Positions 33,440-46,477 of a DNA stretch of 64,000 nucleotides are shown here, in pieces. Every line of letters starts with the position of its first letter. The first letter of the stretch is position 1. The notes under the pieces are model-generated. The model did not search any database, was not told where the DNA came from, and saw nothing but the letters and a program-made list of their open reading frames with translations. Location: assembly GCA_047947115.1 (NCBI GenBank), contig CP170459.1:3264001-3328000 (forward strand), read 5' to 3'. The position numbers and the translations under genes are program-made. This stretch comes from Verrucomicrobiota bacterium. Lineage in GTDB: Bacteria > Verrucomicrobiota > Verrucomicrobiia > Limisphaerales > AAA164-E04.

Positions 33440-34246
33440 TTATTCCATCGACTTAAGAAATTCATCCAGGGCTTCATCCTTCATCTCGACCAGGTGTTCA
33501 TTGGATGGGAATGCGCCTTCGTTGACGTCCTGGACGTATTCCTTGAATGCGGCGATGCGCTCTTGCTGCAGTCTATCATGCTCGGCCTTGAAGTTACGGT
33601 AGGCTTTTGCATGTCGGGGCAGGCGTTCATCGTAATCACCGAGAATGTCATCCGAGAACAGGAATTGGGTATCGCAACCGGAGCCCGATCCGAGGGACAT
33701 CAGGATCATCGGAGTCCTGGAGGACAGCCAGCTTGCGAGTTGGTGAGGTACGCATTCCAGTTCCGCCGCATAGGCGCCCGCGTTCTCAAGCTCCTTCATT
33801 TGAGTGTATAGTTTCTTTGCCTCCTCTGCCGTTTTCCCTATCGCTCGATAGTTGGTCCAGGTGACATGCCGTGGAATCATTCCAAGATGGCCGACCACCG
33901 GGATTCTCTCACGCGCCATGCCTTCTATGATATGAGGGCTCGCCGAGCAGTAGACGGAGCTTGCGCCCATCTCAAGCGCTTTGAATGCGATGCGTATGGC
34001 TTCTTCCTGCGTGGCCATTCCGTGGGGCGTGGCACAGGACAGAAAACTATTGGGAGCGGCGGCGACCAGTCGAGGCAATCTTGCCTGTGCCTCTGGAGAG
34101 TCGAAACTGCAACTCATCAGATCAATTCCCGCCTCTTCGGCCGCAGCGGCTTCTTCCGGAGATTTGACATGAATATGGGTCAGGCAACGTTTGCCCTTGA
34201 GTTTTTGCAGTTCGTAGACCGTGTATTTCTTTCGAGGACGGAGCAT
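33440..34246 (-). CDS. PanB-like (ketopantoate hydroxymethyltransferase family) protein, divergent
   Basis: IPVVGHLG..P, LENAGA.A.ELECVP, LGSG..CD.Q, RHAKAY, GAFP; canonical LVGDS motif absent. Confidence 0.8.
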   Translation of the reverse strand: MLRPRKKYTVYELQKLKGKRCLTHIHVKSPEEAAAAEEAGIDLMSCSFDSPEAQARLPRLVAAAPNSFLSCATPHGMATQEEAIRIAFKALEMGASSVYCSASPHIIEGMARERIPVVGHLGMIPRHVTWTNYRAIGKTAEEAKKLYTQMKELENAGAYAAELECVPHQLASWLSSRTPMILMSLGSGSGCDTQFLFSDDILGDYDERLPRHAKAYRNFKAEHDRLQQERIAAFKEYVQDVNEGAFPSNEHLVEMKDEALDEFLKSME

Positions 34247-34364
34247 GGGGGGCAGCGTAATGATCTCCGGTCATCATTCAAGTCCGATTAGGAAAATATC
34301 GAGTATTGCCAGGAATCTCCTTGGGAATCTGGATTCCAGTTTTGAGCTGAAACTTTCTAATTGA

Positions 34365-35672
34365 TTAATATTTAGGGAAGATGTCAGGTGTCGGGAATCG
34401 GTCTTCGTAGCTGGAATTGAACAGGTATTCTTCGCGGGGTATCTGCATCTTGGGCCAGTTCTGCGGTCGGATACGGATGACTCTTCCGGGACGAATGCCT
34501 TCGATGATCAGATCGGTGTCAAACTGGATCTGAATGCCGCTGCTGCCGATGGGGACTTTACCCGTAGCACGTGTGATATTCAGAATGGTGCCATTGGAAG
34601 CCAAGTGCCCCGGACCGTAGTGGCCGGCTGTGTGCTTCAGGGTGTTTTCAGCTCCGTTCATTTGTGCTGCGACTCCTTTGCGGAAGTCGTCGTACAGCGT
34701 GGGATCCATTCCTCCGAAGAGCGTGGCGCTGACGGTGGCGCGTCCGAATTTGCCATACTCGACGGCATCGACCCAGCCCGGCATCCAACGGCTGCGGATG
34801 AAGGTTTTGTGTGTTTCGGTCTGAAATTCGGCGGCGTTATGGATGGCTGCTTCGTCCAGCCAGATATCCGAAATGTGGAAGCGCGTGAAGGCTCCACTCA
34901 GTCCATCACCCGGCGCCGGTCTCCAGGTGATCCCTAGTAAGACTGCTTGCCCGTCGAGATCCCTTATGCCAGTGGCTGGCCATGTGCCTTCGGAGATCAT
35001 GTCCCTGACCCGAATTCGCTCTCGTCCCCGCCAAATACGAGTGGCGGCGTCGAAGGTCAAATTTTCCTCGTCTACGTTGTTGTCACCTCCGGTTTTCCGT
35101 TCACGGCGGGCGATGATCTTGCCCGCGTTGTTCTCGATCTCCAATGTTTTCAACTTCCAAACTTTGCCTTCGCGTAGGCAGTGACTGGGCTCGTCTTCAA
35201 GAAGGAGTAGGTGGTTCTCGGCCGGCGCGGTTCCTGTTCCACGATAATGTCCGACGTCTTTATCTTTGTGGTCGACCGGTAATACGGGAACGACGGAGAT
35301 CTTCGGGTCCGGTGGGAGAAATCCCCGGACGTGCATCACGGTGCCGAGCGGGACGTCGCGCAGATCCGCCGGTGCACCGTGATACCGGATGATGCCGTAG
35401 GGGAGCATGGCGAAGGGTTGCGGATCATTTCGGTAGAACTTTCCATCGCCCGCCACACGGAGGCTTCCTCGGCGGTTGGGGTGATCCACGAATACCAGTT
35501 CACCGCGGTAGGCGTGTGCTTTTTCCATCGGAGGGAAGACTCCGGTTTTGGGGCGAAAAATCTCCGGTTTTGGCTCCGTGACCGGCTCGGCCGCGGTGGT
35601 GTTCACTTGGAGGATGACCGAAAAGGCGAGGGCGATTCGCCATCGATTCAAAAGTGATGGAATTGGATTCAT
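34365..35672 (-). CDS. Hypothetical secreted protein, paralog B
   Basis: Signal peptide; aligns end to end with 35687..36937 ([16 protein letters not shown]...DRFP.P..FPKY). Confidence 0.85.
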
Positions 35673-35686
35673 GAGCATTTAATGCA

Positions 35687-36937
35687 TTAGTATTTCGGAA
35701 AGACGGCTGGGGAGGGGAAGCGGTCCTCAAGTTTGCTGCCGTCGCCGATGTATTCTTCGCGGGGAATGTTGACCTGAGGCCAACTGGCGGGGCAGATGCG
35801 AATGACTCGTCCGGGACGAATGCCTTCGATGATCAGATCGGTTGAAATGGTAACCTGGATGCCGCTGCTGCCCATAGGCGGCTCTCCCTCGGTTCTTGTC
35901 ACTTCGAGGATGGTTCCACGTGAAGCCATATGGGCTGGACCGTAATCTCCACCCGCGTGCTTCAGGGTGTTTTCGACGCCGTTCATCATGGCGGAAATAT
36001 CCTTGTTGAAATCGGCGTAAAGTGAGCCGTCCATGCCGCCAAACAAGGTAGCTGTGACGGTGGCTTGACCAAATTTGCCGTAATCGACCGCATCGACCCA
36101 GGCAGGCATCCAGCGACTGCGGATGAAGGCGTTGTGGGTTTCGGTCTGGACTTGCGTGGCGCGCTGCATGGCCACGTCATCCAGCCAGATATCCGAGATG
36201 TGAAAACGGGTGAAGACTCCATCCGGTGTGGGTTTCCAGGTGATCCCGAGCAGGACGGGTTGGTCTTCCAGGGATTTCTTGCCGCTGGCGGGCCAGGTTC
36301 CCTCGGCGATCAGATCCGCGACGACAAGGCGTTCACGTCCGCGCCAGAAAAGTGTGGCCGCGTCAAAGGTCAGTTTTTCCTCTTCGCTCTCGTCGCCGCC
36401 TCCTTGTATGGTTGAACGGCTGGCGATGATCATTCCCTTGTTGTTTTGGATGTCCACTTCCTTCAGTTTCCATACCTTGCCTTCGCGCAGGCAGTGACTC
36501 GGTTCGTCTTCCAGAAGCAAGACATGGTTTTCGGCGGGGAAAATGCCCGCGCCTCGGTTGTGGTCGGCATCCTTCTTTCCACTGTCCACCGGCAACACCG
36601 GCACGGCGGAGATGCTTGGGTCCGGTGGAAGAAAGGCGCGGACGTGCAGCACTGTGCCCAGGGGGATATCCCTAAGATCGGCCGGTGCTCCGTGATAGTG
36701 AATGATACCATAAGGCAACATGGCGAAGGGATGCGGGTCGTTGCGGAAGAACATGCCGTTGCCTTGCACCCGGATGCTACCACGACGGTTGGGGTGATCC
36801 ACGAAGATCAGTTCGCCCCGGTAGGCGTGTGCTTTTTCCAGTAGGGGAAATTCTCCTGCCTTGGGGCGGAATGGAGATTCCGCGGTGAGGGTGAGGGTTG
36901 TTAGGAGGGTTAAAATCTGAATCTTACTCTTAATCAT
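35687..36937 (-). CDS. Hypothetical secreted protein, paralog A
   Basis: Signal peptide; tandem paralog of 34365..35672; downstream of the DUF1552 gene. Confidence 0.85.
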
Positions 36938-36941
36938 AATC

Positions 36942-37102
36942 CTAATCGCTAACTACTAACTACTAAATACTAAATACTAATAGATAAATACTAACTACTA
37001 AATACTAATAGATAAATACTAAATACTAAATACTAATATCTAACTACTAACTGCTAATAACTAATAGCTAATAAATAATAACTAATAGCTAAAAACTAAA
37101 TT
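36942..37102. repeat. Degenerate 7-bp tandem array (CTAAnnn), about 23 units
   Basis: CTAACTA/CTAAATA/CTAATAG/ATAAATA/CTAATAA units in strict 7-bp phase fill essentially the whole intergenic space. Confidence 0.95.
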
Positions 37103-38474
37103 AAACCCCAACCACCCCATTACTATCCCCAAACCGATCCGCCTCAACCCCCATGCGTTGCGCCATCAAAAGCAGAAGATTGCTCATATGGGCACCCGTA
37201 TTCACAGGCCGACCGCAGATCTGATAATGTGCGGAGGTGAGCGCACCGTCAGGATCCAGGGAATAACCCTTGAAGTCCTTGGCCTCACGGTTGAAGTCGA
37301 GATGGCTGCCATGCTTCAGACCGAGATCCGAACCACCTGCGAGCACCAAGGGGAGATTGGCATTGCCATGGCTGTGACCGTAGCACATGCCACTTCCGAA
37401 GAGTGACATGGTGGTGTCGAGCAGCGGTTTGCCGTTGAGATCCTTTGTTTCGCTGAGTCGCGAGAGGAAGTAGCTGAACTGCTCGACCGCAAAGGTGTCG
37501 TAATTCGTGAGCTTTTCCATGTAACCGGCATCGCCTCCGTGATGACTCAACTGATGGCGAGACTCCGTGATGCCGATTTCGGGAATGGAGAAAGCATCCC
37601 CTTCGCCGCCCAGACTGAAAGAGGCCACACGGGTCACGTCCGTTTGAAAGGCGAGCACCATGAGATCGTAAACGGTGCGGAAATACTCGCCAGCCTGGGT
37701 TTGGGGAATGTCGCGGTTGGTGCGCTTGCGGTCGGCTTGGGAGATTTCGGGAAGTGGTGTGTCGAGCCAGGCATCGGCGCGTCGGGTTCGGATCTCCGCC
37801 TCACGAACGGAAGTAAGGTATTGCTCAAGGCGACCCTTGTCTTCGACTCCCATCTTTTTCTCCAAGCGACGCACTTCGGCCAGGTTGTCATCGAGTATGC
37901 TGGCTTTGCGACGCAGCGATTTCCTTTGGGCTTCGACACCGCCTTTCGGTTCTTCAAATAAAGTGGCAAAGATCTGACTGCAACGCCGCAGAGCGGGTAA
38001 TTGCACCCCATCTGCGGTCCAGGCAAGAGATCCCTGTGTGAGGGCGATCTCCATGGATGGATAACGGGTGTGTGGCGCGGTGACTTCGGCCATTTTTTGG
38101 TCCACTGAGATGGTGTTGCGATCCGAGGGACCTAGTTTTCCTCCAGTGAGAAAGACATCGATGCAGTTGTGATGATGCCCCAGGGCGCCGGGATGATGCA
38201 GGCCGCTGATGGGGGTGATGACATCACGGTGCTTTTCCAGAGGTTTGAGTGACCTGGAAAACTGGTAGTCCTTCCCTGGTGTCAGGATCTGGTAGTTCAG
38301 CGAATGAACCCCATTGGCCAGGTAGACGAAGGCGCTGCGTTTAGGGGAAGCCGTGTCTAGCTCAGCCGCCCGGAGCGGAATCATGCATTCCAACATGGGG
38401 AGGGAGATGCAGGCGCCCATGGCGCGCAAGGCGTGACGGCGGTCGATCCGCCAGGATTGGGAGAGGATATTCAT
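37101..38474 (-). CDS. DUF1552 domain protein
   Basis: [48 protein letters not shown]. Confidence 0.92.
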
Positions 38475-38478
38475 GGGG

Positions 38479-38527
38479 TTAGTTGTTAGCTTTTAGTTGT
38501 TAGTTGTTAGTTGTTAGTTGTTAGTGG
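38479..38527. repeat. 7-bp tandem array (TTAGTTG), 7 units
   Basis: TTAGTTG TTAGCTT TTAGTTG x4 TTAGTGG. Confidence 0.95.
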
Positions 38528-38887
38528 TTGGGTTTTGGCTCTTAGTTTTTGGATGTAGGTGTTGAGCATGCGTTTGATTTGGATGAGTTCATTGTTTGTT
38601 GTTTTGTATGCGTTTGGTGGAAGATAATTCAGGTCGTTTGCCAGGAGGAGCTGATATTCCAGTTCGGAGGCGGAACCCATGGCGTTGTCGAGGAATCTGG
38701 CGAAGTCCTTTTCCGTGTTCCGACCGCTACCTTCCGCGATATTGGTTGGAATCGAAGAAGCGGACCGACGCATCTGACGGACAAGTCCATAGCATTCGGC
38801 TTCGGGAAAGCTTTGTGTGATCCGGTAAATATCCAGAGTAAGCCCATGCGACCGAACCCAAATCTGCAATTTCCTAAAATCTCTCAT
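38507..38887 (-). CDS. Four-helix bundle protein (23S rRNA intervening-sequence protein / TIGR02436-like)
   Basis: FRKLQIW.RSH.L...IY..T..FP..E.YGL..QMRRSASSIPTNIAEG.GR...DF.RFL..A.GSASEL.YQL.LA.DL.Y. Confidence 0.95.
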   Translation of the reverse strand: MRDFRKLQIWVRSHGLTLDIYRITQSFPEAECYGLVRQMRRSASSIPTNIAEGSGRNTEKDFARFLDNAMGSASELEYQLLLANDLNYLPPNAYKTTNNELIQIKRMLNTYIQKLRAKTQPLTTNN

Positions 38888-38900
38888 CCAACAAAACAAA

Positions 38901-38984
38901 CTAAAACCTAAAACCTAAAAGCTAACAGCTAACAGCTAAAACCTAAAAGCTAACAGCTAACAGCTAAAACCTAAAAGCTAACAG
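38901..38984. repeat. 7-bp tandem array (CTAAAAC/CTAAAAG/CTAACAG), 12 units with 28-bp higher-order period
   Basis: Direct reading of the sequence. Confidence 0.95.
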
Positions 38985-38992
38985 CCACCCCC

Positions 38993-41422
38993 TCACCGCC
39001 TCCTCATCAATTCCGATACAGCCACCACCCGAATGATATCCTTCACACGGTAATTGTTCTTTTCCGCTTCGGCCTGGATGTCTTTGAGGTCGTCCTGATC
39101 GTCCACTGTCAGCACACGGCGCAATGCATAGGTGCACAGGTGCTCGATAAAGGCTTGGGCGATCCGATCGCGATCATTGAGCAGGATCTGTTTGAACTCG
39201 TTGGCGCCATTGAAGGCACGTCCATCCGGCATAACGCCGGTTGCATCAACCAGGGGATCCTCGCCTTTGCCCTTGGGAACCCGCTCGCGTTCGCGCCATT
39301 GACCGATGGCATCGTAGTTGTCCCAGGCAAAGCCCAGTGGATCGATGTTTGCATGGCATGAGGCACAATTCACATCGGTTGCATGCACCTCCAGTCTTTG
39401 GCGGACGGTTACTTTGTCACCATCAGGCGGAACGGGTTCGATTGGATTGACATTTGCCGGTGGTGGTGGCGGTGTTTTATTGAAAATCACTTCGCTGAGC
39501 CAGACTCCTCGGTGGACCGGACGGTGGCGGGTGCCGTCCGAGGTTAATCCGAGCACAGCGCCCATCGTCAGGAGGCCGCCGCGACGGTGTTCTGGTTGGA
39601 GCGATAGGCGTTGGAAGTCGCCGGTCTGTGGCTCGGGCAGTCCGTAGAAATCACACAGCCGGGCGTTGACCACGGTCCAGTCGGAATCAATAAAATGGTC
39701 GATCGACAGATTCTTCGCGATCATCTCGCGAAAAAACTCCACCGGCTCGGCCCGCATGCTCGTCTCGAGCCAGTCGTCGTAGACCGGGTAGAGTCCCCGG
39801 TCAGGCGGGAACATGCCGACTCGGTGCAGTTGCAGCCATTGGCGGGAGAAGTCGTCGATGAAACGGTTGATTCGATCGTCCGTCAACATTCGATCCACTT
39901 CCTGCAGGAGTCCGTCGTTGTTCAAGGTTCCTTCTCTTGCCGAGGCGAAGAGTTCATCATCCGGCATGGAACTCCAAAGAAAATAAGAAAGCCGTGAGGC
40001 AAGTTCCCATTCCGTGAGATGCTCACGCGTGACGGGGGCTCCTTCGACCAGATAGATGAAATGTCTCGATGTCAGGACACGCAGCATCGCTCCGCGCCAG
40101 GCATCGCCCATTGTCTCACCTGCTTTGCGGTCGGAGCGATACGAATCCAGGTATCCTTGCAGTTCCTGCATCTGGACCGGTCGCCGCCAGGCGCGTTCGG
40201 CGAAGCGCTGCAGATGTTCGGTGACCACTTCGTCGCTTGCGTTATCAGCCGGGATCACGCCTTCGCGCCGGGCTTGTTCTGATTGCGACACCAGTGGGCC
40301 TTCCCATTCAATCCAGTCGAGAAGCACCGTGGAAAAAATTCCATTCCCGTTGCCATCGAACATTTGTGGTGCGTTGGGATTGAGGAGCAGGGTTTCGCTG
40401 CTGTGTGTAAAAGTGTAGCCACGTCCGAACGCATTGCGAAAGGCGGCACCACCTCTACGGTCAACGACATCCGTTGCTACCACGGCGAAATGCAATCCGG
40501 TCGGCATCTCGAGAAACACTTCGAACTCGTAGACACTGGGATCATCCTCCGGCGCGGTGATGTCAAACTCAATCAACCCATCCACGGTTTCCTCACTGGT
40601 TCTCAAACCGATGCTGAGATGGGCCGGTTGACCGCCGGGCGGACGGATGCCACTGGCTTGCAGTCGGAGACGGTAGAGGCCGCTTTGTTCCGGACCTGGT
40701 CTTCCAAACCAGTGGGCCTGGAAGGCACTCTGAACACGACCGGGAAAAAGAAGATACCGCAATGGACGCTTGATGCCAAAACGCTCCAGAGCTTCTATCT
40801 CCTCCTTTCCACCACCATAGCCCAACTCCGCCGCCGTCTTCCGAACCTTGCGTGATTCGCCAGAAACGGCGGGAAAGGCGCGATCCAAAACCAGTTTGGC
40901 GGCCCTGTAGTATCGATCCACATGCGATGGCGAGAGAGACAATTCCGAACCAATGCGCTCGAATCCGTGCCAAAGCGTGTCCTCATTCAATTCGCCCGGT
41001 TTGGTGGGGTCGTATCGTACGCCGAGCAGGTCGTAGACCGTGTTCTGGTATTCTTTCCGGCTCAGACGGTAATGTGCCACCGGTGGCCGAGCCGCCATGC
41101 GCGCCGCTTTGCCTGCTTTTAATTTCGTGTCGAGATCTGTAACGAATTTGGTGATTTCGTCTTGCTTGGGTTGAGGTTCTCCTTCAGGGGGCATCTCGCC
41201 GCTATTGATCTTCTCGATGACCTCCGCCCAGATATGTGAGTCCTCACCCAAGCGAAAATTGCGAGAGATCTGATCGATCCGAAGGTCGCCTTTCATCTTA
41301 TCCGGGCCGTGACAGCTCAAGCAATGCGTTTGTAGAAAAGGTTCAAACGGTTCAGATGCTGGTAGTACCGTGGCTACAGCCAAGGATGCAAGCATGACAA
41401 AACAATGACGCTCAATAATCAT
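38993..41422 (-). CDS. DUF1592-family protein with planctomycete-type cytochrome c domain (DUF1587/1595/1592/1588/1585)
   Basis: [63 protein letters not shown]. Confidence 0.93.
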
Positions 41423-41632
41423 AGCGGAATGAGAAAGGGATATACTGCGCGATTTTTAGCAACGGCTCAAGCCTGCTATTTCGGGTTGGATGCTTGATAG
41501 ATGAGAGAAAAATGGAAATTTACTTTGCAATGCAAAGTTGGAATGTTACTTTGTGTTGCAAAGCGAGTGAGGTTATCTAACCCGGAACTTTGGTGTTCAT
41601 CATTTTCGCATTGAAATAATTTCCAAATAACA

Positions 41633-42733
41633 ATGAAAGACAACAGTCGAATCCGTAAAAATCTACTCCTGATGTTGACCATGACCCTGTTCATGATCTC
41701 CATCTTGCTGGAACCGCAAGCTCAGGACAAAGGACCTGAAACTTCGCTGACTTGGAACGATCTGGGTTTAGGTGGCGTACCTGAAGGAGTTTCAACCGAC
41801 GAGCTTGTCATGATCGAAAGCCTTGAGGAAGGGCGGGGGACATGGGAATTTGAAGGCAGGATCATGCAGGACCGGGGCCCGATTCCGATTCAGGGAAAAA
41901 TGGATATCACGGGCTCTCTAAAGGGCGGTATGCTTCCTATGTGGGCGCTGACCTTGAATTGGCCGCGAGAGGATCCCGAGCATGCCATTTTTTATTCGAT
42001 CATGGTCGCGCCTGAAAACAAACAGATCGAATTGATGCTTTTCCGCATAGGCCCCGTCAGAGTCGGTGCTGAAGGCAAACCTACCAAAGATGACTTGGTG
42101 AAAGCACAACGCATCCCGTTCAAGGGGGACTGGGATTTGGAACACAGAAGAATCCTTTGGAAACAGAGCAGGTTGCCCGGAAAAATGGGTGTAAAAGATG
42201 AGCCTGATCAGTTAAAATCTCAAACTTTGGAGATGGAATCTTTCGAAATGATCCTGGCAGACAACGGATCGGTAACCATTCAAAATACAAAGAGTGACGT
42301 TGGAGGATTCGAAATTTCAGGAAAAACAACAGCCCGCATGGGCGACCCGGTGGTAAAGGAAACCCTGGCTTATAACAGAGACATGCGCTTTGCGACCAGA
42401 GACGATGTTTCGGAAGCTCATATCAAGCCGTACATTCCTGGCGCGGCAGTGGACATTACTCTCAACCTGCAGAGGAACGGTCATTACGCTCTTTACAAAA
42501 TCGGCGAAAAGGATTTTCTCAAATTTTTGGATGACCTGTGGCAAGGAAAAGAAAGAGAAAAGGGCGTGGCCGTCAACCAACGAGAAATGGCCAAGCACTT
42601 TGAGCGACTCGGATGGGAACCTTTTGAAAACGCCATCTCATACAACAGCCCCAGCAAGCCTAATGGCGCTATGAGTAACTATTACTACAATGCGAAGACT
42701 GGCATGGTTTTTGAAAATACTGGATACTGGTAG
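41633..42733 (+). CDS. Hypothetical secreted protein
   Basis: 366-aa ORF with signal peptide; no recognised motif. Confidence 0.7.
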   Translation: MKDNSRIRKNLLLMLTMTLFMISILLEPQAQDKGPETSLTWNDLGLGGVPEGVSTDELVMIESLEEGRGTWEFEGRIMQDRGPIPIQGKMDITGSLKGGMLPMWALTLNWPREDPEHAIFYSIMVAPENKQIELMLFRIGPVRVGAEGKPTKDDLVKAQRIPFKGDWDLEHRRILWKQSRLPGKMGVKDEPDQLKSQTLEMESFEMILADNGSVTIQNTKSDVGGFEISGKTTARMGDPVVKETLAYNRDMRFATRDDVSEAHIKPYIPGAAVDITLNLQRNGHYALYKIGEKDFLKFLDDLWQGKEREKGVAVNQREMAKHFERLGWEPFENAISYNSPSKPNGAMSNYYYNAKTGMVFENTGYW

Positions 42734-42759
42734 AATGATTCCGGAGGCTTGCTTTTTTG

Positions 42760-42866
42760 GTAGCTGTTAGCTGTTAGCTGTTAGTGGTTAGTGGTTAGTG
42801 GTTAGCTAATGGCTGATGGCTAATGGCTAATGGCTAATGGCTAATGGCTAATGGCTAATGGCTAAC
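42760..42866. repeat. Head-to-head inverted 7-bp arrays, (TTAGnnn)7 then (CTAAnnn)9, with no cargo
   Basis: TTAGCTG/TTAGTGG units, centre TTAGCTAA at 42802-09, then CTAATGG units; lies between convergent stop codons. Confidence 0.95.
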
Positions 42867-42876
42867 CTCTTTTAGC

Positions 42877-44280
42877 TTACCCGATGATCTCATTTATGGG
42901 CCCGTTGCCTTCTTCGACCAAAAGTGAGACGGGCCCGAGTTCGGGGAGGAACATTTTGGTGTGATCGATGCCGAGTTGGTGGAGGATGGTGGCATGGAGG
43001 TCGCTGTAGTAGTGACGGTTTTCGACCGCCTCATAACCCACTTCGTCGGTGGCTCCGTGGACCACGCCACCTTTGATGCCGCCACCTGCCATCCATGAGG
43101 TGTAGCCTTTGGGGTTATGATCGCGGCCGGTGGTGTTTTGCGACCAGGGCGTGCGTCCGAATTCACTCGTCCAGACGACCAGTGTGTCGTTCAGCATTCC
43201 ACGCTGCTTGAGGTCTTTGATCAGTCCTGCGATCGGCTTGTCCGTGGCTCGGCAATGTGGCGCGTGTTCCTTCATGTCGCCATGGGCATCCCATCCACCG
43301 TTGCCGCCGCCTGCGTGGCAGATTTGAATGAACCGCACGCCTCGCTCGGCCAGGCGGCGCGCGAGCAGTAATTGTTTTCCAAATGACTGCGTGTGATCTT
43401 GGTCAATGCCGTAGAGTGATTGTATATGCGCCGGTTCACCGTTGAGATCGACCGCCTCGGGTGCGGATAATTGCATGCTGGCTGCGAGTTCGTATGCTTT
43501 GATTCTGGCTTGGATATTCGAGTCAATCGAGTAGCGGCGGTGAAAATCGGCGTTCATCTTTTCCAGCACTTGCATTTGACGGTCACGTTCGGTTGCCGAT
43601 CCTGTCTTGGGAGGGTGAAGGTTTGGTATGGGCGTTTCATTGGCCTGAAAAGGCGTCGCGGAAACGGAAGCACCCAGGTAGCCTCCGGTGAGCTGCACTG
43701 GTGACGAGGGGCGTCCGATGTTGACGAAGCTCGGCAGGTTCTTGTTCGCGCTGCCAAGTGCATGGGTTACCCAACTACCGAAGGATGGGTGATCAAATGC
43801 TCGGCCTCGGTGACCGGTGGTGGTTTCGATCACGGCAGGAAAATGATTACCTTCGTGGCCCCACATGGACCTGACAACCGCAATCTCATCGATGACGCTT
43901 CCGACATGTGGGAACCAATCCGAAACGGGCGTTCCGGACTGACCGTAGCGCGTAAAAGTGCGAAGACAGGGGATGACGGGACGCCGCATCTCGGCAAGGT
44001 TGTCCCCAAATCCGATGGCGTCGATGAATTTGCCGGCGTGTTCGTTGCCTTTCGGATCAAATGTGTCGATATGGCTGACGCCACCGCACATGAATAGAAA
44101 AATAACCGATTTGGCTTTCGGTTGAAAATGGGGGCCCAGCATGGCGTCCTTGATGTCCCCTCCTTCCGCCCAGATGCCGCCCAGTGCTGCACCGAGAAAA
44201 CCGCCACCCGCGCGATGGAGAAAATGACGTCGTGAAATTCGCCTGTGTGGAAGTGAGTATGGATTCAAATCAGCGGACAT
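42877..44280 (-). CDS. DUF1501 domain protein (Tat-exported)
   Basis: SRRHFL, AKSVIFLFM.GG.SH.DTFDPK, LLARRL.ERGVRF, WD.H, EFGRTP, GRDH; ATG 44280 overlaps the upstream stop. Confidence 0.93.
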   Translation of the reverse strand: MSADLNPYSLPHRRISRRHFLHRAGGGFLGAALGGIWAEGGDIKDAMLGPHFQPKAKSVIFLFMCGGVSHIDTFDPKGNEHAGKFIDAIGFGDNLAEMRRPVIPCLRTFTRYGQSGTPVSDWFPHVGSVIDEIAVVRSMWGHEGNHFPAVIETTTGHRGRAFDHPSFGSWVTHALGSANKNLPSFVNIGRPSSPVQLTGGYLGASVSATPFQANETPIPNLHPPKTGSATERDRQMQVLEKMNADFHRRYSIDSNIQARIKAYELAASMQLSAPEAVDLNGEPAHIQSLYGIDQDHTQSFGKQLLLARRLAERGVRFIQICHAGGGNGGWDAHGDMKEHAPHCRATDKPIAGLIKDLKQRGMLNDTLVVWTSEFGRTPWSQNTTGRDHNPKGYTSWMAGGGIKGGVVHGATDEVGYEAVENRHYYSDLHATILHQLGIDHTKMFLPELGPVSLLVEEGNGPINEIIG

Positions 44281-46477
44281 AGATGAATTCGTCGAGGTTG
44301 AAGAGGAGCCAGGCAAGCTGCTTGAGGCGCTTGGAATCGTTTTCGAGATAATGCATTGCCACTCTTGTTTCCGTTTCCGTTGGTGGCCTTGCGACGGTCA
44401 GCCGATAGCCGAGTTCTACCGCTTTGTTCAGGTCGCCATCCGCCATTCCGTGGACCCGGTCGGCGAACTGGATGGAAGCGTCTTCGATTTCCGGACTGTT
44501 CATCAGGAACAGGGACTGCGGTGCAGTGACTGTTTGCGTTCGGATGGGGCAGGGCTCTCGTCCGTCGTCCACATCGAAGGTTTGCAGGAAATTGGGTGTT
44601 ACGTCCCGACTCGCCGAATAACCACGCGTGATATAAACGCCTCGCCGTTGCTTCGCTGTGTCATCGCTCGGGGTAAAAGACGAGCCGCCCACGGTCAGGT
44701 CAAGATGGTCCGCCGCAGAGTGGATGGAATCCCAGATTACTTCGGCTTCAAGTCGTTGCAGCGGGAAGTGCCAAAGGTGATCATTGCCCGGATCGATTGC
44801 CTGCGAATCAGCGAATTCAGGTCCAGTATCCGACGCCATTTGGTATGCCTCTGAAGTCACTATGAGTCGGTGCATGTGTTTCATGCTGTATCCGCTGCTT
44901 ACGAATTCCGCGGCCAGCCAGTCGAGCAATCCCGGATGCGTTGGTCTGCCTGCTTGATTCCCGAAATCGCTGGTCTGCTTGTGTAATCCCTTGCCAAAAT
45001 GCCACTGCCATATTCGGTTTACAGCGACACGGGCGAAAAGTGGATTATCTGGGGCGGTGAGCCAGTCTGCAAAAGCCTCGATACGGCCTTCGCGAAAGTC
45101 AATATCGCCTTCTGCAAAAGGCCAGCCGGGCTTTACCTCGTTCTTCAATTCAGGGCGCGCCGGATCAGCACTGGTTAGAACGTAGCTGGGTTGCCTTTCG
45201 CGAATACGATCCGTTTCCACGGTATAAAAGACCGGAATGCGCGGGGCGGGACGACGATTTTTGTTTGCTTCACTAAGACGCTCTTGCAGCGCGCGGGATT
45301 GATTGCGCACCTCTTCGGGGAGAATCTCGTTGATTTTGCCGCCGTCGATTCGGAGGATCGGGAAGTAGTCGTCGGCGATCTTCTGTTCTTCGATGGTGCG
45401 CTTGCTTTCGGGCTTGAGAATCACAGTACGCACTTCCGGCGGCAGCATCTCGACGCGTTCATCATAGAGACGTTTCTTGAAGGGGGCCAGGAGCTCCTCT
45501 AATTCCCTTTCCAATGGAGCGCGCGCCTTTTGCGATTCTGCAATGACCTTGCCGGCTTCGAGCAGCGTTTCCGCGCTTGCCAACGTCACCTTTCTTAAAA
45601 CCAGAGGATCAAACAACGCCTTCATGGAGTAGTAGTCTCTCATTGAAATGGGGTCAAACATGTGATCGTGGCATTTGGCGCAGGCAACGGTCATCCCCAT
45701 GAACGCGGAAGAAATGGTGTCTACTGCGTTGATCGCCAGATTGCCCCCACTGCCTCGTGCAAGAAATCCCAGCGCGAACATGTCGCCGGGCCGTGGTTCC
45801 TTTTCCGAGCGATAGCCGGTTGCCGACATGCGTGTACGTTCGTTAGCACGCCTTCCTGTCAACTGGATCTGAACAAAATCGTCGTAAGGAAGATCGTCGT
45901 GTAACGCGCCGATGATCCAGTCCCTCCATAGGTAAATTCCAGGGGCGGCCGTCATGCCAGTATCCGTATCTGCATATCGTAACACATCCAACCAATGACG
46001 CGCATAACGCACGGCGTGTTGTTCGCTGTCGAGCAGTTTGGTGACGACTTTTTCGTAGGCATTCTCCGATGTGTCCGCGAGGAATGCCTGCTGCTCTGCT
46101 GGAGATGGCGGTAGCCCCACCAGATCAAGATAAACCCGGCGCAAAAGAATCAGTTTATCGGCCGGATCAACGGTTTTCAGTTCAAGGGCTCGACGGCTTT
46201 CCGCAAGGAACCGATCGACCGGATGCTTGGAACCCCCGTCGCCCTGAGGGATTTTCGGAGTGACAATGGGTCGTAACGACCATAAAAGCTCCGTTGAAAT
46301 CTTGCTTTGACGTTCCTGCGCTTGGGCGACGAGCAAAAACCATGAGTTGAAATAGGCACAGGAGACAAACAGCAACAGGCTCGAAACCATGTTTCGTCTT
46401 CGGTTGCTCCTTCGAACGTTCCTGGGATTCCTGTTGAATGGCCTCATCATTTCGAGTGGACAAATCCAGATCGTCAT
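44270..46477 (-). CDS. DUF1549/DUF1553 (PSD1) domain protein
   Basis: LLRRVYLDLVGLPP, RHWLDVLRYADT, CAKCHDH.FDP, NPLFARV.VNR.WQWHFG.G, PTHP.LLDWLA; start uncertain. Confidence 0.92.
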   Translation of the reverse strand: MTIWICPLEMMRPFNRNPRNVRRSNRRRNMVSSLLLFVSCAYFNSWFLLVAQAQERQSKISTELLWSLRPIVTPKIPQGDGGSKHPVDRFLAESRRALELKTVDPADKLILLRRVYLDLVGLPPSPAEQQAFLADTSENAYEKVVTKLLDSEQHAVRYARHWLDVLRYADTDTGMTAAPGIYLWRDWIIGALHDDLPYDDFVQIQLTGRRANERTRMSATGYRSEKEPRPGDMFALGFLARGSGGNLAINAVDTISSAFMGMTVACAKCHDHMFDPISMRDYYSMKALFDPLVLRKVTLASAETLLEAGKVIAESQKARAPLERELEELLAPFKKRLYDERVEMLPPEVRTVILKPESKRTIEEQKIADDYFPILRIDGGKINEILPEEVRNQSRALQERLSEANKNRRPAPRIPVFYTVETDRIRERQPSYVLTSADPARPELKNEVKPGWPFAEGDIDFREGRIEAFADWLTAPDNPLFARVAVNRIWQWHFGKGLHKQTSDFGNQAGRPTHPGLLDWLAAEFVSSGYSMKHMHRLIVTSEAYQMASDTGPEFADSQAIDPGNDHLWHFPLQRLEAEVIWDSIHSAADHLDLTVGGSSFTPSDDTAKQRRGVYITRGYSASRDVTPNFLQTFDVDDGREPCPIRTQTVTAPQSLFLMNSPEIEDASIQFADRVHGMADGDLNKAVELGYRLTVARPPTETETRVAMHYLENDSKRLKQLAWLLFNLDEFIYVR

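What the first reader, a model, noticed from the sequence alone, without database searches (positions are those of the whole stretch)
38475..38992. Four-helix-bundle gene enclosed by inverted heptamer arrays, inserted exactly at a stop/start junction
Seen: the 518 bp between the DUF1592 stop (38993-95) and the DUF1552 ATG (38472-74) hold only a four-helix-bundle ORF and two 7-bp arrays in opposite orientation. The arms align in register from the very ends: 38475-38524 versus the reverse complement of 38943-38992 gives 41/50 identities by hand, including a terminal G-run and the same CTTTTAG variant at the same position. On the coding strand the flanks read ...CG-GTGA | element | ATGA-AT..., as expected if a translationally coupled RTGA overlap had been duplicated on insertion. 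The array also supplies the ORF's own stop codon. Known: DUF1592 and DUF1552 genes are usually adjacent, and this protein family occurs in 23S rRNA intervening sequences and is related to the DGR accessory protein Avd. Inference: a transposase-less element whose arms fold into a long stem that loops the cargo out of the mRNA (or ssDNA), so insertion in operons is tolerated; the protein may bind the repeats.
Basis: partly seen in the sequence, partly recalled or inferred. Interest (0 to 1): 0.85.

Follow-up and report, generated by a model that had tools for sequence, protein, structure and literature searches.

The report
Heptamer-armed gene cassette swapping at junctions
A small gene of unknown function, wrapped in mirror-image runs of a 7-base repeat, sits between two operon genes at a spot that in relatives is empty or holds one of five other repeat-bracketed genes, so it is likely a transposase-less mobile cassette whose ring-shaped protein is predicted to bind its own repeats.

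Summary
In detail: a TIGR02436/PF05635 gene (38507-38887, minus strand) lies between inverted TTAG/CTAA heptamer arrays that fill the DUF1592-stop to DUF1552-start gap. The proposed duplicated RTGA target site is not supported (0 of 48 unoccupied alleles overlap), and the 41/50 register is no better than other arrays give.

Locus-matched inverted arms flank 70 of 88 family genes (6% for cross-locus pairs), and a 23S rRNA intervening sequence shows the same design. Among 90 orthologous junctions, 48 are unoccupied; the rest hold four divergent four-helix lineages, a RAYT-like or a GxxExxY gene, scattered over the host tree. Some near-identical cassettes sit in divergent alleles. The genome's two commonest heptamer families match its two such genes.

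Best reading: a cassette that spreads by homing-like allele replacement, rarely reaches new junctions, and leaves solo arms, with an Avd-like pentamer binding the arms. Binding and movement chemistry are untested; no selection for an mRNA stem was seen. This scan has noted the arm design on other DNA (810 notes); eight literature searches did not find it described outside rRNA.

The parts
38993..41422 (-). Upstream host gene, 809 aa, PSCyt1 + DUF1587/1595/1592/1588/1585; its TGA (38993-38995) is the left boundary of the insert
38901..38992 (-). 5' arm: about 12 heptamers with a TTAG core (TTAGCTG, TTAGCTT, TTAGGTT), starting a few bases after the upstream stop
38507..38887 (-). Four-helix-bundle gene (TIGR02436 / PF05635), 126 aa from ATG; the last residues and the TAA are read from the 3' arm; model matches pentameric Xcc0516 and, more distantly, Avd
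38475..38550 (-). 3' arm: about 7 heptamers with a CTAA core (CTAACAA, CTAAAAG), degenerate towards 38550, ending 4 nt before the next ATG
37101..38474 (-). Downstream host gene DUF1552 (PF07586), 457 aa; its ATG is the right boundary
36949..37099 (-). Solo TTAG-core array (about 21 units) directly after the DUF1552 stop; length varies by 49-56 nt in related metagenome contigs
42761..42865 (.). Cargo-less inverted pair of TTAG-core arrays between two convergent stop codons

Best explanation
This is one copy of a widespread cassette, a four-helix-bundle gene inside its own inverted heptamer arrays, that sits between a stop codon and the next gene's start and likely spreads without a transposase, mainly by homing-like replacement of the same junction in other alleles, with its predicted five-subunit protein likely binding the repeats.

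Shown: the architecture, its family-wide recurrence, locus-matched arms, turnover of occupants at this junction, purifying selection on the protein, and solo arrays of the same units elsewhere in the genome. Inferred steps: (1) lying after a stop and in the operon's direction, the cassette is co-transcribed and breaks no reading frame; (2) the Avd-like pentamer offers five equivalent sites that would grip successive 7-nt units of single-stranded arm RNA or DNA; (3) the protected, arm-closed cassette is copied into an empty or differently occupied allele by host recombination, sometimes with about 60-100 nt of flank; (4) rarely it reaches a new junction; (5) loss of the gene leaves solo arms and cargo-less hairpins, a likely source of the genome's intergenic heptamer arrays. 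ORF-bearing 23S rRNA intervening sequences are the same cassette in rRNA. The strand-transfer chemistry is not identified.
For: Arms are family-wide and locus-specific: 70 of 88 loci have a 5' flank complementary to their own 3' flank against 6% of 2200 cross-locus pairs; period 7 in 59%/70% of flanks, other periods at most 5%, control windows 1-5%. Leaving out the 15 same-junction rows gives 58 of 73.

One junction, many occupants: of 90 orthologous junctions, 48 unoccupied, 20 TTAG-type, 7 TTCTTGG-type, 7 AAATG-type (2 fragments), 2 GGAGT-type four-helix genes, 2 Y1/RAYT-like, 3 GxxExxY, 1 extra paralogue. On the host tree (70 distinct rows) the states need 25 changes (minimum 6, shuffled 30.7); TTAG alone 10, at least 6 forced by well-supported branches.

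Lateral exchange: synonymous differences in the cassette gene are 7/106, 9/106, 12/104 and 14/105 where flanking genes differ at 0.41-0.46; 6 of 91 TTAG pairs have the cassette at least 0.25 below the flanks, 0 the reverse. Sharp identity steps about 60-75 nt before the stop in L102/L108 and L108/L110.

Gene and unit travel together to new sites: the two closest cyanobacterial homologues (64% and 55% identity; between cas6 and cas4, and between secretion genes) carry the same TTAGC/CTAA arms. Unit similarity at different sites rises with protein identity (3-6% of pairs below 45%, 40% at 55-70%, 80% above 70%).

Solo arrays track the gene: GAAT and TTAG, the cores of G000's two copies, are its two commonest 7-period cores. 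One of three patterns occurs in 14 of 21 genomes with the gene and 3 of 20 without; in the genus only G000 and G001 of 8 genomes have either. Median dN/dS 0.078 and 0.054. Fold: TM 0.95 to 2GSC, 0.81 to Avd 4DWL; Avd's five protomers bind flipped-out RNA bases (10.1101/2023.10.23.563531, passages). rRNA case: L267 is an insert in 23S rRNA with a 39% identical protein and inverted heptamer arms.
Against: No binding, cutting or movement was shown, and the cassette encodes no known nuclease, recombinase or reverse transcriptase. Four metagenome contig sets showed no joint skipping 38475-38992 (contigs cannot show absence). Between G000 and G001 the cassette is not clearly more alike than its surroundings (0.87-0.94 against 0.79-0.96), so this copy needs no recent transfer, and the G001 gene has an internal stop. 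Co-conversion is weak: near-identical last 60 nt in 3 of 99 TTAG pairs, 3 of 466 TTAG-unoccupied pairs, 2 of 455 unoccupied pairs, 0 of 14 in the other two lineages. Patchiness could also come from ordinary recombination in a repeatedly transferred operon, or from chimeric assembly at the arrays. Protein-unit coupling over 50 independent sites is weak (Mantel rho 0.02-0.10, p 0.02-0.3) and co-inheritance alone can explain it. Genome co-occurrence uses related genomes, and one of the three patterns was the tool's reversed control, taken after seeing it.
Confidence: 0.5

Rival explanations
1. mRNA intervening sequence: the arms pair in the transcript, RNase III cuts the stem as in rRNA, and the stem is what makes the insert tolerable; the protein is secondary.
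For: In Coxiella the IVS has this ORF, tandem heptamers, a 28-bp terminal stem and RNase III cleavage at the first repeat (PMC4990558, passages). L267 shows the design in 23S rRNA. The window's coding strand folds at z -3.6. Arms stay complementary while units differ between loci.
Against: No G.U excess on the coding strand (60 against 86 of 334 mismatches; duplex better on the coding strand in 29 loci, on the other in 41). This locus folds better on the non-coding strand. Cleavage without ligation would split an operon mRNA (inference). Solo arms are common and cannot form the stem. dN/dS below 0.1 says the protein matters.
Confidence: 0.2
2. Host regulatory module: the pentamer is a TRAP-like RNA-binding regulator of its own gene and of the other genes that carry cognate arrays at their ends; mobility is incidental.
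For: Arrays are polarised to gene ends: the 5'-arm strand begins just after a stop in 31 of 43 G000 arrays, the complementary strand precedes a start in 7, with no leading/lagging bias (8/16, 14/27) (crude ORF set). MacGregor proposed translational control by TAACTGA arrays before start codons (PMC4679880, abstract and two sections). Purifying selection.
Against: The gene is absent from 20 of 41 related genomes searched, broken in G001 while arrays persist, and replaced at one junction by unrelated cassettes. Copies sit in unrelated operons, including cas and rRNA operons.
Confidence: 0.13
3. Non-autonomous retro- or ssDNA element: the Avd-like ring presents the arm RNA or DNA to an enzyme encoded elsewhere (a reverse transcriptase, RAYT or GxxExxY nuclease), which inserts it after stop codons.
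For: Avd fold; orientation follows transcription, not replication; RAYT-like and GxxExxY genes with their own inverted repeats use the same junction; G000 has five Y1 matches and REP-like repeats beside 7 of 27 GAAT arrays.
Against: G000's only RVT_1 match is a 551-aa ORF that I read as a group II intron type, 1.9 Mb away; Avd model score 26 bits against a cut-off of 80; no target duplication, no fixed ends; no REP-like motif beside 0 of 16 TTAG arrays; multi-copy genomes hold divergent copies, not bursts of identical ones.
Confidence: 0.12
4. Passive: heptamer arrays arise by polymerase slippage in intergenic DNA and the gene is an ordinary horizontally moved passenger.
For: Array length does vary by multiples of 7; slippage was proposed for bacterial heptamer repeats (Mrazek 2007 as summarised in PMC4679880).
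Against: Slippage does not explain complementary arms of a locus-specific unit on both sides of one gene family, the same unit around homologues in another phylum and site, or the genome-level co-occurrence.
Confidence: 0.05

Closest known systems
ORF-bearing intervening sequences (IVS) of 23S rRNA, S23p / PF05635 (Coxiella, PMC4990558; Leptospira, Ralph and McClelland 1993 as cited there)
   Same: Same protein family, about 0.45-0.55 kb, terminal inverted repeats, tandem heptamers before the ORF, sporadic presence; L267 is a direct example with both arms.
   Different: Here it lies between protein genes, not in rRNA; arms are long heptamer arrays with solo copies genome-wide; the ORF is under purifying selection; RNase III excision untested.
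REP/REPIN-RAYT systems (10.1101/2021.07.10.451892, passages)
   Same: Single-copy gene flanked by inverted cognate repeats, with solo and doublet repeats dispersed in intergenic DNA; each gene has its own repeat family; a RAYT-like gene occupies this very junction in two relatives.
   Different: No HUH/Y1 transposase; units are tandem 7-mers, not palindromes; the cassette is patchy on the host tree and exchanged between alleles, whereas RAYTs are described as vertically inherited.
DGR accessory protein Avd (4DWL, 8UB7; 10.1101/2023.10.23.563531, passages)
   Same: Same four-helix fold (TM 0.81-0.84); closest solved homologues 2GSC and 2RLD have five chains.
   Different: 15% identity, below the Avd cut-off; no DGR reverse transcriptase beside it; template and variable repeats were not searched for.
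Intergenic heptamer arrays of Beggiatoaceae, Cyanobacteria and Bacteroidetes (TAACTGA, PMC4679880; cyanobacterial STRR, name recalled)
   Same: Period 7, intergenic, polarised to start and stop codons, length changes in steps of 7.
   Different: That paper names no mechanism of spread and does not mention this protein family; here arrays are tied to a cognate gene.
Homing of introns, inteins and free-standing endonuclease genes (recalled)
   Same: Occupied and empty alleles of one site, exchange between alleles, occasional shared flank tracts.
   Different: No recognisable endonuclease; co-conversion signal weak.

Membership tests
TIGR02436 / PF05635 four-helix-bundle protein | HMM score above curated cut-off and four-helix fold | tested here: met
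   130.8 and 132.6 bits; model pLDDT 97, TM 0.95 to 2GSC
23S rRNA IVS | Located inside an rRNA gene | tested here: not met
   No Rfam match in 34000-45000; flanks are protein genes
23S rRNA IVS | S23p ORF with heptamer repeats inside complementary ends | tested here: met
   compare
23S rRNA IVS | Excised from the transcript by RNase III | not testable with these tools
   No RNA data obtained; indirect test (G.U bias) gave no support
23S rRNA IVS | Sporadic presence among relatives | tested here: met
   48 of 90 orthologous junctions unoccupied
REP/RAYT | HUH (Y1) transposase in the element | tested here: not met
   Only PF05635 and a sub-threshold bAvd match
REP/RAYT | Gene flanked by inverted cognate repeats, with dispersed solo and doublet copies | tested here: met
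REP/RAYT | Gene tree congruent with host, vertical inheritance | tested here: not met
   vertical between G000 and G001 only
DGR Avd | Avd model above cut-off and a neighbouring DGR reverse transcriptase | tested here: not met
   26 bits against 80; sole RT match 1.9 Mb away
Insertion sequence / MITE | Target-site duplication and fixed terminal repeats | tested here: not met
Homing element | Transfer into cognate alleles with co-conversion of flanks | tested here: inconclusive
   Cassette younger than flanks in 6 of 91 pairs; shared 60-nt tracts 3 of 99 against 2 of 455
Homing element | Element-encoded site-specific endonuclease | not testable with these tools
   No nuclease fold found; invariant polar residues Q38 R41 S45 N49 E52 E75 of unknown role

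The most novel reading that the evidence does not exclude
A distinct class of transposase-less mobile element in which an Avd-like pentamer is the cognate factor of bacterial heptamer repeats: it binds, and with its invariant Q/R/S/N/E/E residues may itself nick, its own arms to home into stop-start junctions, competes there with RAYT and GxxExxY cassettes, and seeds the intergenic heptamer arrays whose origin is unexplained. rRNA intervening sequences would be one landing site of this class.
Probability: 0.3. Interest if true: 0.9.

Novelty: new variant of a known kind. Interest (0 to 1): 0.72.

Why it matters
It ties together two old puzzles: what the very common S23p / four-helix-bundle family does (found in 110 of 151 genomes of this phylum) and where bacterial intergenic 7-base repeats come from. 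Each gene comes with a named candidate ligand, and this genome carries two copies with different units, so specificity can be tested by a simple swap. It also suggests that the family's reported association with cas operons (PMC3936711, passages) reflects insertion rather than a CRISPR role, and it identifies a junction where six kinds of repeat-bracketed cassette alternate.

Tried and rejected
RTGA target duplication: rejected. In-register ends and terminal G/C symmetry: not special, not conserved. Selection for an mRNA stem by G.U bias: no support. Universal motif in the units, or stop codons enriched in them: none for the 5' arm (25 of 50 against 25.5 shuffled); 3' arm 16 against 11 +/- 2.7, suggestive only. 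Lagging-strand bias as in IS200/IS605: none. Promoter or intrinsic terminator in 36800-39300: 1 and 0, at chance level. Structured RNA families: none. Phage records: no match; plasmid collection 34 of 72,556 records. Empty allele in close strains: no skipping joint in 4 DNA contig sets, which shows nothing about absence. Expression and RNA ends: no RNA data obtained, left open. Recent transfer of this very copy: not needed. The neighbour-orientation tally used a crude ORF finder and is not relied on. The careful protein tree did not finish; the quick tree was used. No complex prediction was run, since the oligomer is known from 2GSC and nucleic acid cannot be the partner.

Full report
Observation. 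The window's minus strand carries an 809-aa PSCyt1/DUF1587/1595/1592/1588/1585 gene, then 518 nt, then DUF1552. The gap holds a 126-aa TIGR02436/PF05635 ORF between a TTAG-core array (38901-38985) and a CTAA-core array (38478-38529); the ORF's stop is inside the second array. The 41/50 match is right but ordinary for this repeat family: other registers give 31-41, and 4 of 9 other arrays of the genome give 41-46. Nearest named records point to Verrucomicrobiota.

The genome. G000 has two TIGR02436 genes. The second also starts just after a stop and has inverted arms, but with a GAAT core. GAAT and TTAG are the two commonest period-7 cores of the genome, and period 7 outnumbers periods 5-10 (131 against 0, 31, 4, 50, 5). 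Solo arms and cargo-less inverted pairs occur, some filling a stop-to-ATG gap. The 5'-arm strand begins just after a stop in 31 of 43 arrays and the complement precedes a start in 7, using a crude ORF set; there is no replichore bias.

The family. I collected 100 loci (the 59 best-scoring matches laid by two genome searches, and 41 from a scan seeded with this protein) and kept 88 with full flanks and a good score, dropping one duplicate. Period 7 appears in 59% of 5' and 70% of 3' flanks, against at most 5% for other periods and 1-5% for control windows; 70 of 88 have arms complementary to each other, against 6% of 2200 cross-locus pairs and 12.5% in direct orientation. Fifteen rows are this same junction; without them 58 of 73. 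Forty further copies from six multi-copy genomes and G018 were read by eye: copies within a genome are divergent, each with its own unit. Units cluster on the quick protein tree, and unit similarity at different sites rises with protein identity, but a Mantel test on 50 sites is weak. As a fresh check I fetched 8 of 34 plasmid-collection matches: 7 show inverted arms by eye, and the two closest homologues, both cyanobacterial and at unrelated sites, carry this window's units. One of the 8 lies inside 23S rRNA. Across 41 related genomes, 21 have the gene; arrays of at least one of three cores occur in 14 of these and in 3 of the 20 without (Fisher p 0.0013, overstated by kinship and by one pattern chosen afterwards).

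This junction. G001 (DUF1552 96% identical) has the same insert with different array lengths and an internal stop in the gene. Eighty metagenome loci (the best 80 of 418) plus 18 earlier loci gave 90 with both host genes. Forty-eight are unoccupied (gap 6-172 nt, none overlapping), one holds an extra paralogue, and 41 hold a cassette: 20 TTAG-type (15 of them selected by the protein search, so not a frequency), 7 TTCTTGG-type, 7 AAATG-type, 2 GGAGT-type, all PF05635 where scanned (5 proteins), plus 2 Y1/RAYT-like and 3 GxxExxY genes with their own inverted repeats. Several unoccupied alleles keep short arm-like remnants. On a quick host tree of 70 distinct rows the states need 25 changes. The cassette gene is far more alike than its flanks in 6 of 91 TTAG pairs, about three independent events, and never the reverse by the same margin; shared flank tracts are few. 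Between G000 and G001 vertical descent suffices. Median dN/dS is 0.078 (74 pairs) and 0.054 (19 pairs).

No RTGA duplication. No excess of G.U pairs on the coding strand, and this locus pairs better on the other strand. Four DNA contig sets showed array-length changes but no excision joint. No RNA data were obtained.

The protein. The model (pLDDT 97) matches Xcc0516 (2GSC, TM 0.95), BT_0352 (2RLD) and Avd (4DWL, TM 0.81). Q38, R41, S45, N49, E52 and E75 are nearly invariant in 94 sequences; the first five fall on one face of helix 2 by spacing (inference). In the DGR structure all five Avd protomers contact one RNA stem-loop through flipped-out bases. A pentamer reading successive heptamers is therefore plausible; comparison with TRAP is recalled, not tested.

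Mechanism. Best supported (0.5): a cassette that moves with its arms, mostly by homing-like replacement at a cognate junction and rarely to new ones, whose protein binds the arms and whose decay leaves solo arrays. That it is a mobile cassette at all I put near 0.8; the binding step and the chemistry are inferred. Rivals are an RNase III-cut mRNA intervening sequence (0.2), a host regulator (0.13), an element moved by an RT or nuclease in trans (0.12), and passive slippage (0.05).

Literature. Read: PMC4990558 (passages; heptamers, terminal stem and RNase III cleavage in the Coxiella IVS), PMC4679880 (abstract, introduction, one results section, passages), 10.1101/2023.10.23.563531, 10.1101/2021.07.10.451892 and PMC3936711 (passages). 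Ralph and McClelland 1993, Lin 2006 and Mrazek 2007 were seen only as cited. No supplements were read; they could bear on novelty. Eight searches found no paper tying this family to inverted heptamer arms at protein-gene junctions; the library lacks most subscription papers. The scan's own notes hold 810 similar entries on other DNA (looked up after my reading was formed); none matched the words homing and co-conversion. They are not independent support.

Verdict. New variant of a known kind (ORF-bearing IVS outside rRNA, organised like REP/RAYT). Interest 0.72; most novel reading 0.3 likely, 0.9 if true.

Noticed in passing
L228, L232, L254 (junction gap): A GxxExxY (PF13366) gene bracketed by its own inverted repeats of about 28 nt occupies the same DUF1592|DUF1552 junction; it may be another REP/RAYT-like pairing.
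   Followed up: partly
L201, L221 (junction gap): A Y1 transposase gene (PF01797 27.5 bits; RAYT model 72.5, cut-off 80) between inverted palindromic repeats at the same junction.
   Followed up: partly
G000:C1:2824218-2824635; L068, L069: The genome's second four-helix gene has GAAT-type arms; against G001 the gene region is 66-82% identical while flanks are mostly 82-98%, suggesting replacement in one lineage.
   Followed up: partly
G000:C1:4443157-4443451, 5216575-5216630, 3537741-3537950: Cargo-less inverted heptamer pairs; the first two fill the gap between a stop and the next ATG.
   Followed up: partly
G000:C1:2801384-2801704, 2815613-2816070: GAAT arms bracket a non-coding REP-like element; 80 copies of the REP-like motif in the genome, beside 7 of 27 GAAT arrays and 0 of 16 TTAG arrays.
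   Followed up: partly
window 34365-35678 and 35687-36937: Two tandem paralogous genes (about 70% DNA identity) follow DUF1552; the second had no Pfam or NCBIfam match, the first was not scanned.
   Followed up: no
L003, L004, L033, downstream of DUF1552: TTCTTGG heptamers lie inside the 5' end (probable signal peptide) of the next gene, which overlaps the DUF1552 stop.
   Followed up: no
L262 (NZ_CP112875.1 46052-46733): A 64% identical homologue with the same TTAG/CTAA arms sits between cas6 and cas4; the family has been listed among genes of cas loci.
   Followed up: partly
L078, L085: Two loci have heptamer arrays in direct rather than inverted orientation around the gene; L052-L054 have period 8.
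   Followed up: no
G018:C2: A small contig rich in TTTAGGG runs, like a plant or algal telomere; probably contamination, counted as negative.
   Followed up: no
L141 (G000:C1:1376821-1380486): The genome's only RVT_1 match, a 551-aa ORF of group II intron type, overlaps a transposase-like ORF.
   Followed up: no
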